Part shown: positions 51,516-64,000 of the stretch, piece by piece
How the letters are laid out: each line of letters opens with the position of its first letter
Position numbering within the stretch: position 1 is the stretch's first letter
Origin: a phage
Strand: one strand, 5' to 3'
DNA length: 64,000 nt
NCBI GenBank assembly: GCA_017822615.1
Contig: GCA_017822615.1_4530.1
The notes under the pieces: model-generated
Databases searched by the model: none
The model's input: the letters and a program-made list of their open reading frames with translations, nothing else
What the model was told of the DNA's origin: nothing
Made by a program: the position numbers and the translations under genes

Positions 51516-51834
51516 AATCTTGAATTCTATCTAGCACCCATTGTATACGATGTTTGTTTTTATGGCAAATATGTTTTTTATGTTCAAAGGTGTATTCCTC
51601 ATAACCACCTTCATTAAACGGGAAATTGTAATCCAATCCTGCACCAATAAACTGTGATTTCATCTCTTGTTGTAGACGAGGTAACAGTTCATCAGGGTAT
51701 GTTCCCTCTACATACTTAATCAAACATATGCACAAACCACTCGTTGTGTGACCTTCTACCTCACCAGCAAGCCAAGCTTTGTAAAACTTCATTAGACGTA
51801 AACTACTTAACGGAACATTTTTACTCTCTTGCAT
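51490..51834 (-). CDS. GLC/WVK paralog family member
   Basis: LMKFYKAWLA...SGLCICL...FPFN...RIQWVLDRI; RBS gagaggag on reverse strand. Confidence 0.65.
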   Translation of the reverse strand: MQESKNVPLSSLRLMKFYKAWLAGEVEGHTTSGLCICLIKYVEGTYPDELLPRLQQEMKSQFIGAGLDYNFPFNEGGYEEYTFEHKKHICHKNKHRIQWVLDRIQDYEGEKDDK

Positions 51835-52173
51835 GACAATCTCCTCTCATCGTTAGCCATCTTTCATGGCAATCATCAATCACCAACATCATACGATCAA
51901 TCTTAAGGAATTACAATCGATTTATCATAGGGGATTCCTATCAATTATCCCATATATACCGATTATTTTTGACACCCCGCTCTTGTATAAAAAGTAACCC
52001 AAAATATCTACGGGGAGAGATTATTTCGGGACACCCTGTTTCATGGCAATCATGGCAAGAATATCTAATAGAATCAATATCATATGGCAAAAATCATGGC
52101 GCATACGTAAGAAGTGCTTAACGCGAATTTTCGGGCCGTCAGGTCCACGCAGCGACAATTCCCAAATATCATG

Positions 52174-52196
52174 CGAATGAGAATAATTATCATTCG
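52174..52196. promoter_or_regulatory. 23-bp near-perfect palindrome, Fur-box-like operator
   Basis: cgaatgagaataattatcattcg; resembles the GATAATGATAATCATTATC-type AT-rich dyad. Confidence 0.4.
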
Positions 52197-52353
52197 TATT
52201 CAATGACTTATGCAAGGCTCATGCCAACATAGCGACAAGGTGGGCCACCTGATTATAAATCACACAAACACTTATTTATCAATGGCTTGGCAACTTCATC
52301 ATATGACGGAACAATGTCAACTAATCCCGCTCATGACAGACGGACTATTATTT

Positions 52354-52374
52354 ATATGAGAATGATTATTATTT
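52354..52374. promoter_or_regulatory. iteron-like site (ATGAGAATGATT motif)
   Basis: atatgagaatgattattattt shares the ATGAGAATGATT core with the iterons at 63829-63944. Confidence 0.35.
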
Positions 52375-53089
52375 AAACGTTTATTAACATATAAACTAAA
52401 ATAAATCAAGAATTTTCTGATTTTATTTACGTTTAAGAGAACTTGCTCAACATATCGCTACGCGATAGTATTCGCCCCCAAAAGATTAGCCTTTATTTTC
52501 TTGTATGTTTATACACTATGTGCACACTATGCAACCTGTCGCTATTCGCTCATGTTGCTACGTGCAATTATTCATCTTGCTAATGATCTCATCTTGTAAT
52601 TACCACAATGATTATTGTTATTGCGCTAATGTTATGATCTTGGTAATTACATATAATGCTAATAATAAGCCAGCGCAATAAGTGTAAGCGTCATTACGCT
52701 TGCAATTATTGCAAGCTACGCAGTAACAAGAAATAACCGTCACCGATGGTTATGATTGTTGGGGTGTAGTTGGCTTATTATTAGCTCGCTATGTGTCCGG
52801 CATAGCGTGCTAATGATGACTCTGTGAATGATTCGTTTTGTAATGATTTCATTCATGCACTATTTTGCTAATAGTTATTATTTTAATGGTTTCGTTTGTT
52901 ATTGTTCGTTAGTTGGTTGTTTTGTCGTGTTATCGTTATCTTGCTTAGTATTCATCATGGTTTGATTGTTTGTCGTTATCAATCATCTTGCTATTATTCC
53001 TTTGATTATGATTAGTTTGCTTATTGTTTTAGGTTGTTGGTTAGTTAGTTGTTGCGAACTATTATCAACATTATAATTATGCGCTTATA

Positions 53090-53130
53090 TTGCATAGATA
53101 ATCATGGGTAGATGATAATGGTTATCATTG
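53090..53130 (+). promoter_or_regulatory. promoter-like element overlapped by a Fur-box-like site
   Basis: TTGCAT 53090-53095, about 17 nt, GATAAT; gatgataatggttatcattg 53111-53130 matches about 14/19 of the Fur consensus. Confidence 0.35.
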
Positions 53131-53151
53131 CACTAGAAAGGAGGTAAAAGG

Positions 53152-53250
53152 GTGTTTTTGATGGTTTGTTGTTGGTTGTTGATCGATTTTAACCGCTATA
53201 AATGGCTCTCTAACAGCCTGTTACCCTGGGAGGTATGGTTATTCGTTTAA
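53152..53250 (+). CDS. candidate small hydrophobic Trp/Cys-rich peptide (32 aa)
   Basis: AAGGAGG 53138-53144 placed 7 nt before GTG 53152; peptide MFLMVCCWLLIDFNRYKWLSNSLLPWEVWLFV; not in track. Confidence 0.25.
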   Translation: MFLMVCCWLLIDFNRYKWLSNSLLPWEVWLFV

Positions 53251-53333
53251 TGGTTGATTAGCTCGATACCGCGATTTATTCAATTTTGTTCTGTGTCGGT
53301 TTTTCATAGGCGAAAGCTATCAACATTGTTCGG

Positions 53334-53364
53334 GCAAAAAGAAAGGGCGCTTGGTGCGCCCCTT
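53334..53364 (-). terminator. rho-independent terminator (aagggcgc hairpin family)
   Basis: Hairpin aagggcgc-ttggt-gcgcccctt; reverse strand followed by ctttcttttt; ends the early block. Confidence 0.65.
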
Positions 53365-53377
53365 GTTTTGTTGTCAA

Positions 53378-53797
53378 TTATAACGCTTCATAGATTGAGT
53401 AGATCCGGTTTGCCAGGTCATTACGAAAGCGGAATTTTTCATCACGTTTGATCATCAGATCCTTAAAACCGCATTCTTTCAGTGCTTCATTAACTTTATG
53501 GCGGCAAACGTTCATATTATCCTGCGCGTCACCAATAAACTTATTACTGTGATGCATTGCTTTGATCTCTTCCTCTAATACCAGGGCAACTACACGGATC
53601 GGATCAAGCTGATATGCGGTAACATCCATGCGGCATTGTAAACGGCTTTTAACATCGTTTACCGGATACACTGCAACCTCTTCCCCGTCAACGTTCACGA
53701 TAACCAATTTACCATCGATTTCGAAGCCTTTGGCGGCGCTACCGTGACAAAAAGCGTTATCGAAGGAGTAAGCTGGATTATTTGATTTAATGTTCAT
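53378..53797 (-). CDS. hypothetical early protein
   Basis: ORF track; RBS aaggataa on reverse strand. Confidence 0.6.
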   Translation of the reverse strand: MNIKSNNPAYSFDNAFCHGSAAKGFEIDGKLVIVNVDGEEVAVYPVNDVKSRLQCRMDVTAYQLDPIRVVALVLEEEIKAMHHSNKFIGDAQDNMNVCRHKVNEALKECGFKDLMIKRDEKFRFRNDLANRIYSIYEAL

Positions 53798-63302: not shown

Positions 63303-63569
63303 ATGACAAATACTACATTACACCTTATGCACTCATTGGGCTGGCAAGGCGGCACGGTGCACCAGGTAGCAAGCGCAACGGGCTTAAAGGTTGAAACCGT
63401 TCTCAACCTGGGCGATCATAAGGTGGAAGAGATAGATCATTTTGATACGTTCGCAAATGGTTATCTATGGGCTTGCAGTGGCGGCGGGGAAAGCAAGATA
63501 CCACCAGGGGCGCGGGGCGATATGTATTTTTGGTTAGGTGTCCTATCCTGGCAAGAAAACAAAAAATAA
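63303..63569 (+). CDS. hypothetical protein
   Basis: ORF track; RBS aagggcg; only plus-strand gene in this segment. Confidence 0.5.
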   Translation: MTNTTLHLMHSLGWQGGTVHQVASATGLKVETVLNLGDHKVEEIDHFDTFANGYLWACSGGGESKIPPGARGDMYFWLGVLSWQENKK

Positions 63570-63571
63570 TC

Positions 63572-63600
63572 TTGACAAGCCCAGGGATCGGGCTTATACT
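63572..63600 (+). promoter_or_regulatory. sigma70-type promoter with palindromic spacer
   Basis: TTGACA 63572-63577, 17-nt spacer agcccagggatcgggct (dyad agccc/gggct), TATACT 63595-63600. Confidence 0.5.
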
Positions 63601-63828
63601 GTTTTACATACAGAAGAGGAAGCGCCACCCCACGGCGTAAAGGCGGGGCTAACATACCAGGGGGCACTGGTTGGAAGGTTGATCGCCGGTAGGCTGGGTG
63701 CTATATATTTGTAAAGAAATGCAAAGATAAAATAATCGCTTGCTTTCCTGGCTGGATCTGTTATTCTTATTACATGGCGAGGGGACACGGGAGCGCGAGA
63801 CAAACACCGCCCCTGCGCGTCATTCTCT

Positions 63829-63944
63829 AAATGAGAATGATTGTCATTTACCTTATTAAATAAGAATCAATCTCATTTATAAACTTAAATGCGAATCATT
63901 ATCATTTGCATTTCCATATGAGAACTCTTCTCATTTTCACCTGC
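63829..63944. repeat. four tandem 29-bp iterons, each an imperfect dyad (ATGAGAA...TTCTCAT)
   Basis: Repeat units start at 63829, 63858, 63887, 63916 with consensus aAtgaGAAtcatTcTCATTT; followed by AT-rich tract 63945-64000. Confidence 0.6.
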
Positions 63945-64000
63945 ATAAAAATTTTTGTAAACTTTAAATTTTGCTTTTGTACTTTCATTTTTGTAAAAGC

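What the first reader, a model, noticed from the sequence alone, without database searches (positions are those of the whole stretch)
51835..53377. 1.5-kb gene-free hub with strand-skewed low-complexity DNA and overlapping palindromes
Between two minus-strand gene blocks lies a region with no convincing ORF. From about 52850 to 53060 the plus strand is almost entirely T and G (runs such as gtttcgtttgttattgttcgttagttggttgttttgtcgtgttatcgttatc). Overlapping perfect palindromes at 52686-52701 (aagcgtcattacgctt) and 52698-52716 (gcttgcaattattgcaagc) could form alternative hairpins. The direct repeat tttcatggcaatcat occurs at 51862 and 52040. A strongly RBS-linked 32-codon hydrophobic ORF (53152-53250) sits behind a promoter-like TTGCAT...GATAAT overlapped by a Fur-box-like site. 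The region could hold the promoters for the 34.8-51.8 kb block, a packaging or replication signal, or ncRNAs.
Basis: seen in the sequence. Interest (0 to 1): 0.6.

Follow-up and report, generated by a model that had tools for sequence, protein, structure and literature searches.

The report
Phage chromosome ends with terminal repeat
This gene-free stretch is where the two physical ends of a phAPEC8-like phage chromosome meet: a 329-bp terminal repeat, a feature already known for this phage group, flanked by conserved non-coding signals (a folded DNA/RNA element and host iron-regulator binding sites) that I did not find described.

Summary
The window is a Phapecoctavirus (98% identical to phAPEC8). 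51835-53377 has no credible gene, holds the most T+G-rich 200 nt of the window, and contains the stated hairpins, repeat, small ORF and Fur-like promoter.

The region is the junction of the virion DNA ends. Window 52119-52447 matches (99%) the exact 329-bp repeat at both ends of the Schickermooser record. At least 11 relatives' records start or stop at these boundaries. Both boundaries lie in the same motif, GCT|YAAC, as in phi92's annotated 343-bp repeat.

- **Left of the repeat:** the leader of the first gene.
- **Right of the repeat:** about 930 bp of non-coding "right end", holding three features.
  - A 170-nt multi-hairpin element (52652-52820). It has strong compensatory changes and folds specifically on the + strand.
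  - A C-poor, AT-rich spacer.
  - A Fur-box promoter unit that ends at a bidirectional terminator.
- **Fur boxes:** three near-consensus boxes, two of them inside the repeat, are conserved across genera.
- **The 32-codon ORF:** it is not conserved.

The terminal repeat is known for this group. The cut motif, folded element and Fur boxes appear undescribed, and their functions are inferred.

The parts
51835..52118 (-). Left-end unique leader, lying between the terminal repeat and the first gene (phAPEC8 gp18, which is Schickermooser gp001). It contains the exact direct repeat TTTCATGGCAATCAT (51862-51876 and 52039-52053) and a conserved palindrome ATAGG-N5-CCTAT (51927-51941).
   Evidence: Schickermooser record position 1 maps to window 52447, and its gp001 starts at record position 614. 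The repeats were found, and conservation is shown.
52119..52447 (.). Direct terminal repeat (DTR) of 329 bp. It is present once in this assembled window and at both ends of the virion DNA.
   Evidence: Schickermooser has an exact 329-bp repeat at both record ends, and it maps here. The segment is 99.1% identical to the window, and at least 11 records begin or end exactly at these limits. A terminal repeat of 328 bp is reported in PMC6563267. phi92 annotates a DTR of 343 bp at the homologous place.
52114..52122 (+). End-forming site A, GTGCT|TAAC, with the cut between 52118 and 52119.
   Evidence: The motif and cut position are the same at phi92's annotated boundary, GGTGCT|TAACGCG. CTTAACGCG is one of the four most conserved blocks of the gap.
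52443..52451 (+). End-forming site B, TTGCT|CAAC, with the cut between 52447 and 52448. It has the same motif and orientation as site A.
   Evidence: phi92's boundary is TAGGCT|CAACAAA. BME3's tandem 343-nt unit has the same limits. The metagenome relative L096 carries the same two motifs 401 nt apart.
52176..52194 (.). Fur box 1, AATGAGAATAATTATCATT, with 1 mismatch in 18 to the idealised 9-1-9 Fur consensus. Its centre is 66 bp inside the repeat from site A. In this genus only, it overlaps a minus-strand TTGCAT-N18-GATAAT.
   Evidence: The box is conserved in Justusliebigvirus and KP13-26.
52355..52373 (.). Fur box 2, TATGAGAATGATTATTATT (3 mismatches of 18). Its centre is about 84 bp inside the repeat from site B. 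The homologous box is a perfect TGATAATGATTATCA in muut, arall and phi92.
52448..52651 (+). Hypervariable right-end segment with + strand TGCTAAT / GCTAAT(G/A)(A/T)T repeats.
   Evidence: Four of the 11 + strand TGCTAAT in 64 kb lie in the gap, and none lies on the minus strand there. Indels and poor conservation are visible.
52652..52820 (+). Conserved multi-hairpin element. A further hairpin, 52787-52794/52800-52807, follows.
   Evidence: Of 48 pairs, 99.8% of cells are paired. 13 pairs show compensatory changes against 6.3±1.0 in shuffles (0 of 500 reach it), and slid controls give 4 or fewer. There are 39 G·T cells and 0 A·C cells on the + strand. The + strand folds at -76.4 kcal/mol (z -8.0) and the minus strand at -56.5. 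The covariance model scores 149.5 bits in L096, a relative not used for training. No Rfam family matches.
52698..52716 (.). Palindrome GCTTGCAAT-T-ATTGCAAGC, whose arms are invariant across the subfamily. It is a candidate site for a dimeric protein as well as part of the fold.
   Evidence: All 8 pairs never vary in 14 sequences. It is the longest fully conserved block of the gap.
52823..53084 (+). C is 11% here and 5-10% in other clades. The T excess over A is specific to Phapecoctavirus.
53052..53066 (.). Degenerate Fur-like box 4, TGCGAACTATTATCA (3 mismatches of 14). The homologous position is a good box in Justusliebigvirus (TAAGAATGATTATCA).
53090..53129 (+). Sigma-70-like promoter TTGCAT-N18-GATAAT, whose -10 element is overlapped by Fur box 3, GATGATAATGGTTATCATT (53111-53129, 2 mismatches of 18).
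   Evidence: The TTGCAT and the box are conserved in Stephanstirmvirinae and in Av-05.
53126..53372 (+). Predicted + strand transcript of about 245 nt. The 5' third is variable and contains the non-conserved 32-codon ORF (53152-53250). A sequence block at about 53195-53340 is strongly conserved, including the palindrome ATAG-N7-CTAT at 53305-53319.
   Evidence: Alignment. No covariation was found apart from the terminator. Part of the block recurs in non-coding DNA of Tequintavirus. No E. coli homologue was found.
53342..53364 (.). Bidirectional intrinsic terminator, shared by the last gene (gp17, minus strand, stop at 53378) and the + strand unit.
   Evidence: It is annotated as a terminator in phAPEC8 and Schickermooser, and the stem is invariant across clades.

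Best explanation
The 1.5-kb gap is the junction between the two physical ends of the phage chromosome, which are adjacent in replicative concatemers and in the assembled sequence.

**Shown here**
- A 329-bp direct terminal repeat lies at 52119-52447.
- Both of its limits sit in the same directly oriented motif, GCT|YAAC.
- The leader of the first gene lies on one side.
- A non-coding right end of about 930 bp lies on the other side.

**Inferred mechanism**
- The packaging enzyme recognises signals in the right-end DNA. Candidates are the TGCTAAT repeats, the invariant palindrome and the hairpin element.
- It cuts the two strands at the two GCT|YAAC sites.
- The 329 bp between the cuts are copied, so that every virion receives the repeat at both ends, as in T7-type phages.
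- The left end, which carries the block of small genes at 34.8-51.8 kb, then enters the cell first.

**Role of the folded element (inferred)**
The 170-nt element folds only on the + strand. It therefore acts as single-stranded nucleic acid. That could be DNA exposed during end duplication or lagging-strand synthesis at the right end, or an RNA read inward from the repeat.

**Role of the Fur boxes (inferred)**
Near-consensus boxes lie in the repeat and over the -10 element of the convergent + strand promoter. They most likely bind host Fur, making transcription at the chromosome ends respond to iron. Once the phage DNA is amplified, they could instead titrate Fur.
For: **Identity.** The window is 98.2% identical to phAPEC8.

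**Terminal repeat**
- Schickermooser has an exact 329-bp repeat at both ends of its linear record. Record start maps to window 52447 and record end to 52119.
- Its paper reports a 328-bp terminal repeat.
- At least 11 linear records start or end exactly at these limits.
- phi92 annotates DTR-L and DTR-R of 343 bp in the homologous position, with gp001 356 nt inside and 1110 nt of non-coding DNA before DTR-R.
- A recent paper states that Stephanstirmvirinae genomes end in direct terminal repeats.

**Boundary motif**
- It is identical in position in the window, phi92 and BME3's tandem unit, and is present in L096.
- TGCT[TC]AAC occurs only 4 times on the + strand of the window, and two of those are the boundaries.

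**Constraint on the gap.** 36% of its columns are invariant across four clades, against 18% and 27% for the two flanking genes. In some clades these are different genes, so the comparison is rough.

**Folded element.** Covariation, strand asymmetry and energy support it. It was recovered in a sequence not used for training. Av-05 has an analogous closing stem with three inner hairpins.

**Fur boxes**
- The five sites in the window with 3 or fewer mismatches of 18 all lie in two non-coding hubs.
- They are conserved across genera, and one is perfect in Justusliebigvirus.
- A matrix built from the phage sites alone gives 6 hits in the E. coli ent-fep locus. Five fall in its three Fur-regulated intergenic regions, which make up 2.8% of the locus. 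Shuffles give 0.145 hits.
Against: - **No reads or virion DNA of this isolate were available.** The ends are assigned by homology.
- **Some records may not be independent.** Some of the 11 may have been re-oriented to match Schickermooser rather than determined separately.
- **BME3's own DTR annotation is offset** by about 70 nt from the motif-defined unit.
- **The enzymology is analogy.** The cutting enzyme, the stagger and the direction of packaging are inferred from T7-type phages (my own knowledge), not shown.
- **No conserved promoter was found** for the first gene or for the folded element.
- **The element could be RNA unrelated to packaging.**
- **Fur binding is untested.** An AT-rich palindrome could equally be the operator of a phage protein. 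In Justusliebigvirus, Fur box 1 does not overlap a recognisable promoter.
Confidence: 0.85

Rival explanations
1. The main function of the gap is to encode non-coding RNAs: a structured RNA of about 170 nt (52652-52820, + strand) and a Fur-repressed small RNA of about 245 nt (53126-53372, + strand). These would act on the host or on phage gene expression. This is compatible with the region also being the chromosome end.
For: - The fold is + strand specific: 39 G·T cells against 0 A·C cells.
- 13 pairs covary.
- The + strand unit has the layout of an sRNA gene: a promoter with an operator over the -10 element, a conserved 3' part, and an intrinsic terminator. This layout is conserved into Vequintavirinae, and part of it into Tequintavirus.
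Against: - No Rfam family matches.
- No convincing or conserved promoter lies upstream of the folded element.
- The + strand unit shows no covariation apart from its terminator, and single-sequence folds are weak and inconsistent.
- No transcript data were found for this phage group.
- G·T tolerance is also expected for single-stranded DNA.
Confidence: 0.3
2. The gap holds the origin of replication. In this reading the AT-rich C-poor spacer is the unwinding element, the TGCTAAT repeats are initiator sites, and the + strand hairpins are a single-strand initiation (priming) signal.
For: - The spacer has 20-30% G+C against 39% for the genome, and is strand-asymmetric in all clades.
- Short oriented motifs are repeated.
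- The fold is strand specific, like single-strand origins of plasmids and ssDNA phages (my own knowledge).
Against: - There are no DnaA boxes in the region.
- GC skew keeps the same sign on both sides and follows gene orientation.
- No initiator gene lies next to the region, and no experimental origin is known for the group.
- The repeats are few and diverge between clades.
Confidence: 0.15
3. The 32-codon ORF at 53152-53250 is a real gene for a small hydrophobic protein expressed from the Fur-box promoter.
For: AGGAGG lies 7 nt upstream of a GTG start, behind a promoter-like site and in front of a terminator.
Against: - The start codon and ribosome-binding site are absent in phiWec181, muut, arall, phi92 and KP13-26.
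- The stop codon is replaced by TGC in DE16 and phiWec181, so the frame would run through the terminator.
- Single-base indels between clades fall in the conserved part.
- No PHROG match was found.
- T/G-rich DNA necessarily encodes F, L, V, C, W and G.
Confidence: 0.04
4. The gap is unconstrained spacer DNA, and its palindromes and skews are chance or mutational by-products.
For: The segment 52448-52651 is hypervariable with many indels.
Against: - The gap has more invariant columns than the flanking genes.
- Compensatory changes are frequent.
- Motifs are conserved across two subfamilies.
- The Fur pattern occurs 7 times against 0.7 expected.
Confidence: 0.01

Closest known systems
Direct terminal repeats of phi92 (343 bp, annotated in FR775895.2) and of vB_EcoM_Schickermooser (328/329 bp; PMC6563267), subfamily Stephanstirmvirinae
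   Same: The DNA is homologous: 99% identical to Schickermooser, with islands of about 70% to phi92. The position is the same, between the last and first genes. The boundary motif GCT|YAAC is the same, and so are the flanking non-coding elements.
   Different: Nothing essential differs. phAPEC8's own record does not mark the repeat. The papers I could read report only the repeat length and presence, not the cut motif, folded element or Fur boxes. The phi92 paper could not be read.
T7/T3 concatemer junction: a 160/230-bp terminal repeat with flanking packaging signals and a right-end inverted repeat. This entry rests on my own knowledge and was not tested here.
   Same: Both have a short exact terminal repeat, early genes next to the left end, non-coding repeat-rich DNA flanking the repeat, and an inverted repeat a few hundred bp inside the right end.
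   Different: There is no sequence similarity. The phage is a myovirus with no phage RNA polymerase, so T7's polymerase-dependent steps (the phiOR promoter and the pause site in the junction) cannot apply. The hairpin element here is much larger and multi-branched.
E. coli Fur operators (19-bp Fur box; 7-1-7 / 9-1-9 readings), for example fepA-fes, fepD-entS, fepB-entC and ryhB
   Same: The sequence matches. The phage sites have 1-3 mismatches of 18, closer to the ideal than the ent-fep operators, which have 3-5. A matrix built from the phage sites finds those operators. One site overlaps a -10 element, the classical repressor position. Multicopy Fur boxes are known to titrate Fur (the Fur titration assay, cited in PMC2189734).
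   Different: The sites sit in a virulent phage, two of them inside the terminal repeat at fixed distances from the cut sites (about 62-66 and 84-85 bp). Binding and regulation are untested. I found no report of Fur boxes in such phages.
Strand-specific single-strand initiation signals (plasmid sso, G4/phiX priming sites) and phi29 packaging RNA. These are resemblances recalled from my own knowledge.
   Same: The size is similar (about 150-200 nt), the element is multi-hairpin and active on one strand only, and it lies near a genome end.
   Different: There is no sequence or model match, and Rfam is negative. The phage family and replication mode differ. No evidence shows that the element is transcribed or primes synthesis.

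Membership tests
Short direct terminal repeat (DTR) genome ends of Stephanstirmvirinae | The sequence is homologous to a repeat found identically at both ends of a relative's virion DNA record. | tested here: met
   Schickermooser's ends share an exact 329-bp repeat. It maps to window 52119-52447 at 99.1% identity.
Short direct terminal repeat (DTR) genome ends of Stephanstirmvirinae | The repeat limits coincide with limits determined independently in other members. | tested here: met
   phi92's annotated limits and BME3's tandem unit fall at the same GCT|YAAC positions. At least 11 records start or end there.
Short direct terminal repeat (DTR) genome ends of Stephanstirmvirinae | The repeat is physically present at both ends of this isolate's virion DNA (double read coverage, fixed read starts). 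| not testable with these tools
   No reads or virion DNA are available for the window.
T7-type concatemer junction | Dependence on phage RNA polymerase transcription and pausing in the junction. | not tested
   No T7-like promoter search was run. The group is not known to encode such a polymerase (my own knowledge). The comparison with T7 is one of mechanism, not membership.
T7-type concatemer junction | An inverted repeat and short repeats flank the terminal repeat on the right-end side. | tested here: met
   The hairpin element lies 205-373 bp from site B, and TGCTAAT repeats lie between them.
Fur box (Fur operator) | Match to the 19-bp / 7-1-7 consensus, at a rate above chance. | tested here: met
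   7 matches against 0.7 expected. Sites have 1-3 mismatches of 18. The cross-test on the ent-fep locus supports the match.
Fur box (Fur operator) | The operator overlaps the -35 or -10 element of the regulated promoter. | tested here: inconclusive
   This holds at consensus level for 53090-53129. For box 1 it holds only in Phapecoctavirus, and no promoter was found for box 2. No transcription start data exist.
Fur box (Fur operator) | Fur binds in a metal-dependent way and regulation responds to iron. | not testable with these tools
   This needs a gel-shift or footprint assay, or a fur mutant.
Known structured RNA family (Rfam) | Score at or above a family's gathering threshold. | tested here: not met
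   There were no gathering-level hits in the window. Only sub-threshold chance-level hits appeared at E up to 10.
Structured non-coding RNA (generic) | A secondary structure supported by compensatory changes. | tested here: met
   13 of 48 pairs show changes on both sides, 0 of 500 shuffles reach this, and slid controls give 4 or fewer.
Structured non-coding RNA (generic) | Evidence that the strand is transcribed (promoter, terminator, reads). | tested here: inconclusive
   No conserved promoter lies upstream. The nearest + strand terminator is about 520 nt downstream. No transcriptome was found.
Protein-coding gene (32-aa ORF) | The reading frame, start and stop are conserved in relatives. 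| tested here: not met
   The start is lost in five clades or sequences, the stop is lost in two, and frame-breaking indels occur.
Replication origin | DnaA boxes or iterons together with an AT-rich unwinding element and a skew switch. | tested here: inconclusive
   An AT-rich asymmetric spacer is present. There are no DnaA boxes and no sign change of skew.

The most novel reading that the evidence does not exclude
A virulent coliphage places high-affinity binding sites for the host iron regulator Fur inside its terminal repeat and over a conserved end-proximal promoter. Next to the repeat it carries a conserved, strand-specific, 170-nt folded element that acts as RNA or single-stranded DNA. 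If both are functional, the phage reads or manipulates host iron status (repression in iron-replete cells, or titration of Fur once its DNA is amplified). It would also use a previously undescribed structured element in end formation, priming or packaging. Both features are shared across Stephanstirmvirinae, with counterparts in Avunavirus.
Probability: 0.3. Interest if true: 0.7.

Novelty: new member of a known kind. Interest (0 to 1): 0.45.

Why it matters
- **Annotation.** phAPEC8-type records, including phAPEC8 itself, are mostly deposited as arbitrary linearisations with a 1.5-kb blank. Placing the true ends at 52118|52119 and 52447|52448, with a simple motif (GCT|YAAC), lets these therapeutic-candidate phages be oriented and compared correctly. 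It also tells engineers which DNA must not be disturbed.
- **Biology.** Short-repeat ends are well studied only in T7-like podoviruses. This region offers a myovirus counterpart with three concrete, testable cis elements: the cut motif, a covarying single-strand fold, and conserved Fur boxes.
- **Iron.** If the Fur boxes are functional, they would link the host's iron status to infection by a virulent phage. These phages are used against gut and avian pathogenic E. coli, which live under iron limitation, so the link would be relevant there.

Tried and rejected
- **Rfam searches** found nothing, at gathering threshold on the whole window and at E up to 10 on the region and on four related loci.
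- **tRNA/tmRNA scan** found none.
- **PHROG and Pfam scans** of all gap ORFs and the two flanking genes gave no hits.
- **Consensus fold of the + strand unit 53126-53374** gave only the terminator, with no covariation. Single-sequence folds of its conserved block were weak and inconsistent. I therefore do not claim a structured sRNA there.
- **Metagenome scan** with GCTTGCAATNNTTGCAAGC returned mostly chance hits. Only L026, L043, L096 and L129 were relatives.
- **E. coli genome search** with the + strand unit found no homologue.
- **Promoter scan** found 12 sites against 9.6 expected, so it is not informative. Hand inspection found no promoter for the first gene or the folded element that is conserved between genera.
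- **DnaA boxes and a skew switch** as support for an origin were both absent.
- **Literature searches** found nothing on transcriptomes of this group or on Fur boxes in lytic phages. The phi92 genome paper is not held. The search for T7 junction papers was unproductive, so the T7 comparison rests on my own knowledge.
- **BME3's annotated DTR-L** was first taken as a third boundary determination, then set aside. That record contains the repeat region three times and the annotation is offset.
Full report
**1. What the window is**

The query region 51700-53500 is 98.2% identical to Escherichia phage phAPEC8 and matches 90 phage records, nearly all Phapecoctavirus. In phAPEC8 the homologous 1.5 kb lies between gp18 and gp17 and carries only a predicted terminator. 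A gene-free gap of similar size also occurs at the same place in the sister genus Justusliebigvirus (muut and arall; phi92). It occurs in unclassified Klebsiella relatives too, and a 1.9-kb gap is present in Av-05, a member of Vequintavirinae.

**2. Checking the observation**

- **No gene.** Only ORFs of 65 aa or less occur. None hits PHROGs or Pfam.
- **T/G skew.** 52850-53060 is 72% T+G. The 200-nt window at 52855 is the T+G maximum of the whole 64 kb (0.74 against a mean of 0.506, sd 0.047).
- **Palindromes.** 52686-52701 is a 6-bp stem with a 4-nt loop. 52698-52716 has perfect 9-bp arms.
- **Direct repeat.** The 15-nt repeat is exact at 51862 and 52039.
- **ORF, promoter and Fur-like site.** All are present.
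- **Terminator.** A bidirectional terminator sits at 53342-53364.

**3. The region contains the physical ends of the chromosome**

Several linear records of relatives start or stop inside the gap.

- Schickermooser's record carries an exact 329-bp repeat at both ends. Its position 1 maps to window 52447, reading downward, and its last base maps to 52119. The paper describing it reports a terminal repeat of 328 bp.
- A search with 52119-52447 alone shows at least 11 records that place this segment exactly at position 1-329 or exactly at their last base. These are Schickermooser, Ro121lw, three SA_NWU phages, BI-EHEC, WPEC1, 2, 4 and 6, and Mt1B1_P17. Several carry a second copy at the other end.
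- phi92's record annotates left and right direct terminal repeats of 343 bp. Its first gene starts at 699, and 1110 nt of non-coding DNA lie between the last gene and the right repeat.
- BME3 is reported to have 342-bp repeats by PhageTerm.
- A 2025 paper states that Stephanstirmvirinae genomes end in direct terminal repeats.

The layout, in the orientation of those records, is therefore as follows.

- **Left end:** the repeat (window 52447 down to 52119), a 284-nt leader (52118 down to 51835), then the first gene and the block of small genes at 34.8-51.8 kb.
- **Right end:** the last gene gp17 (stop at 53378), the terminator, about 930 nt of non-coding DNA (53377 down to 52448), then the repeat.

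**4. The two limits share one motif**

- In the window the limits read AGTGCT|TAACGCG and CTTGCT|CAACATA.
- phi92's annotated limits read GGTGCT|TAACGCG and TAGGCT|CAACAAA.
- BME3's record contains the repeat region three times. Its exact 343-nt tandem unit starts and ends at the same positions, whereas its annotated DTR-L is offset.
- A divergent metagenomic relative (L096) has the two motifs 401 nt apart.
- TGCT[TC]AAC occurs four times on the + strand of the window, and two of those are the limits.
- CTTAACGCG is one of the four best conserved blocks of the gap.

I infer that GCT|YAAC marks the two end-forming cuts. This is inference from position. The enzyme and the chemistry are not shown.

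**5. The gap is under constraint**

Across four clades (window, PsgM04F, muut, KP13-26), 36% of gap columns are invariant. The figures for the flanking genes are 18% and 27%; in some clades these are different genes, so the comparison is rough. Conservation comes in islands separated by hypervariable DNA.

**6. A folded element on the + strand (52652-52820)**

- **The fold.** An alignment of 14 distinct sequences from five or more lineages gives a consensus fold of 48 pairs.
- **Covariation.** 99.8% of cells are paired. 13 pairs show changes on both sides, against 6.3±1.0 in column shuffles (0 of 500 reach it) and at most 4 when partners are slid by 1-3 columns.
- **Strand specificity.** All 39 non-Watson-Crick cells but one are G·T on the + strand. 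None is A·C, which would be G·T on the other strand. The + strand folds at -76.4 kcal/mol (z = -8.0), and the minus strand at -56.5 (z = -5.7).
- **Independent recovery.** A covariance model finds one copy in the window. It scores 149.5 bits in L096, which was not used to build it and which adds further compensated changes.
- **Analogue in Av-05.** There is no sequence match, but an analogous 15-bp closing stem around three hairpins sits at the corresponding place.
- **The 19-nt palindrome.** Its arms never vary. This suggests sequence-specific recognition in addition to pairing.
- **Alternative pairing.** In single-sequence folding, the 3' half of the first small hairpin and the first half of the palindrome pair instead with upstream bases, forming a long hairpin (52675-52691 with 52696-52712). 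This alternative is 80% paired in the alignment, with one compensated pair.
- **What it means.** No Rfam family matches. The strand asymmetry indicates function as single-stranded nucleic acid. I could not decide between RNA and DNA. I found no conserved promoter upstream and no transcriptome for the group.

**7. The T/G-rich tract**

The spacer between the folded element and the next conserved block is 236-415 nt long in relatives. C is 5-11% in all clades, against 19% in the window as a whole, and GC skew is positive (+0.26 to +0.55). The excess of T over A is peculiar to Phapecoctavirus.

The conserved property is thus depletion of C on the + strand in AT-rich DNA. On the minus strand, which is the sense direction of the flanking genes, this would give a G-poor, unstructured transcript downstream of the last gene's terminator. 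That is the composition expected of a Rho loading site. This last point is conjecture from composition only.

**8. Fur boxes**

- **How close to consensus.** Against the idealised 9-1-9 form AATGATAATNATTATCATT, exactly five sites in 64 kb have 3 or fewer mismatches of 18. They are 52176 (1 mismatch), 52355 (3), 53111 (2), 63830 (2) and 63888 (2). The bona fide operators of the E. coli enterobactin cluster have 3-5 mismatches.
- **Cross-test.** A matrix built only from phage sites was used to scan 26 kb of the E. coli ent-fep locus. It gives six hits, five of them in the fepA-fes, fepD-entS and fepB-entC intergenic regions, which make up 2.8% of the locus. Shuffles give 0.145 hits.
- **Conservation.** The two sites inside the repeat are conserved in all genera, with centres about 62-66 bp from one limit and 84-85 bp from the other. 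The second is a perfect TGATAATGATTATCA in muut, arall and phi92.
- **Position over a promoter.** The third site overlaps the -10 element of TTGCAT-N18-GATAAT (53090-53119, + strand). This arrangement is conserved through Stephanstirmvirinae and in Av-05, with a second box 58-61 nt upstream that is degenerate in the window.

That these sites bind Fur is inference from sequence. I found no report of Fur boxes in such phages.

**9. The + strand unit and the small ORF**

From the Fur-box promoter to the terminator is about 245 nt. Its 3' half (about 53195-53340) is strongly conserved, even in Av-05. About 90 nt of it recur in non-coding DNA of T5-like phages. It has no E. coli homologue, and nothing in it covaries except the terminator.

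The 32-codon ORF lies in the variable 5' part.

- Its GTG start and ribosome-binding site are missing in phiWec181 and in all Justusliebigvirus and Klebsiella relatives.
- Its stop is replaced by TGC in DE16 and phiWec181.
- Single-base indels break any common frame.

I conclude that it is not a gene. Its hydrophobic translation follows from T/G-rich codons.

**10. How it most likely works**

- **Shown:** the position and limits of the terminal repeat by homology, the shared limit motif, conservation, the strand-specific fold, and the Fur-box match.
- **Inferred, by analogy with T7-type phages (my own knowledge):**
  - Concatemers carry one repeat per junction.
  - The packaging enzyme binds signals in the right-end DNA.
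  - It cuts at the two GCT|YAAC sites.
  - The repeat is duplicated by DNA synthesis.
  - The left end, with the small early genes, enters the next host first.
- **The folded element:** it would act when the + strand is single-stranded, during end duplication or lagging-strand synthesis toward the right end, or as an RNA.
- **The Fur boxes:** they would make end-proximal transcription respond to iron, or titrate Fur late in infection. Multicopy Fur boxes are known to do this.

**11. Comparison with what is known, and verdict**

The terminal repeat of this phage group is already documented, so the hub itself is an ordinary member of a known kind.

I did not find the following described in the papers I could read:

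- the cut motif;
- the covarying + strand element;
- the conserved Fur boxes inside and beside the repeat;
- the conserved convergent + strand unit.

These raise the interest moderately, and their functions remain to be tested.

Noticed in passing
window 63527-64000 (continues beyond the window; phAPEC8 142577-143066 = L139 3078-3567): A second non-coding hub. It has four Fur-like palindromes in phase about 29 nt apart (63830, 63859, 63888, 63917) and a near-consensus TTGACA-17-TATACT on the + strand at 63573-63601. It also has GC-rich hairpin-like segments at 63600-63820 and tandem A/T-rich repeats (TTTACAAAA(A/G)TGAAAGT...CAAAATTTAAAGTTTA). The phAPEC8 gene 257 annotation starts within the GC-rich segment (window ~63526; L139 3568).
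   Followed up: partly
L001 9936-9955, 11351-11370, 12201-12220, 12582-12601; L139 4213-4232, 4852-4871 (window about 55.6-58.3 kb and beyond): The 'PHIRE promoters' annotated in phAPEC8 share a conserved GC-rich hairpin, mostly GTAGGGCGGCAATGGTGCCGCC, that in at least one case directly follows an annotated host-type promoter. This looks more like a 5' stem-loop of early transcripts than a promoter. The same GTAGGGCGGCAATG start appears in T5-like loci L143 and L144.
   Followed up: no
window 51925-51943 and 53302-53322: A pair of similar palindromes, TCATAGG-N-CCTATCA and TCATAGG-N-GCTATCA (direct-repeat family D1, 79% identical). One lies on each side of the terminal repeat, and both are conserved between genera. 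They are a possible operator for an unknown protein.
   Followed up: partly
window about 53195-53290; L140 2433-2530; L143 1501-1591; L144 1501-1582: About 90 nt of the conserved + strand block recur at about 75% identity in unannotated non-coding DNA of Tequintavirus (T5-like) phages OSYSP and FGS017, and in Avunavirus Av-05. This is a widely shared non-coding element of unknown function.
   Followed up: partly
L008 + L007 (BME3, PP239276.1, record 146000-147371 and 1-700): The BME3 record contains the terminal-repeat region three times, including an exact tandem 343-nt unit. Its annotated DTR-L is offset from that unit. This is probably an assembly artefact of the repeat.
   Followed up: yes
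L003 (muut) against window 51800-51940: muut, a Justusliebigvirus, carries a leader and first-gene start almost identical to the Phapecoctavirus type, whereas arall and phi92 differ. This points to mosaic exchange at the left end between genera.
   Followed up: no
L140 722-2638 (Av-05): In Av-05 the 1.9-kb gene-free gap has converging flanking genes, a CA-rich stretch (about 1200-1450) and many hairpins. It lacks the GCT|YAAC motifs, so its ends, if they lie here, are formed differently.
   Followed up: partly
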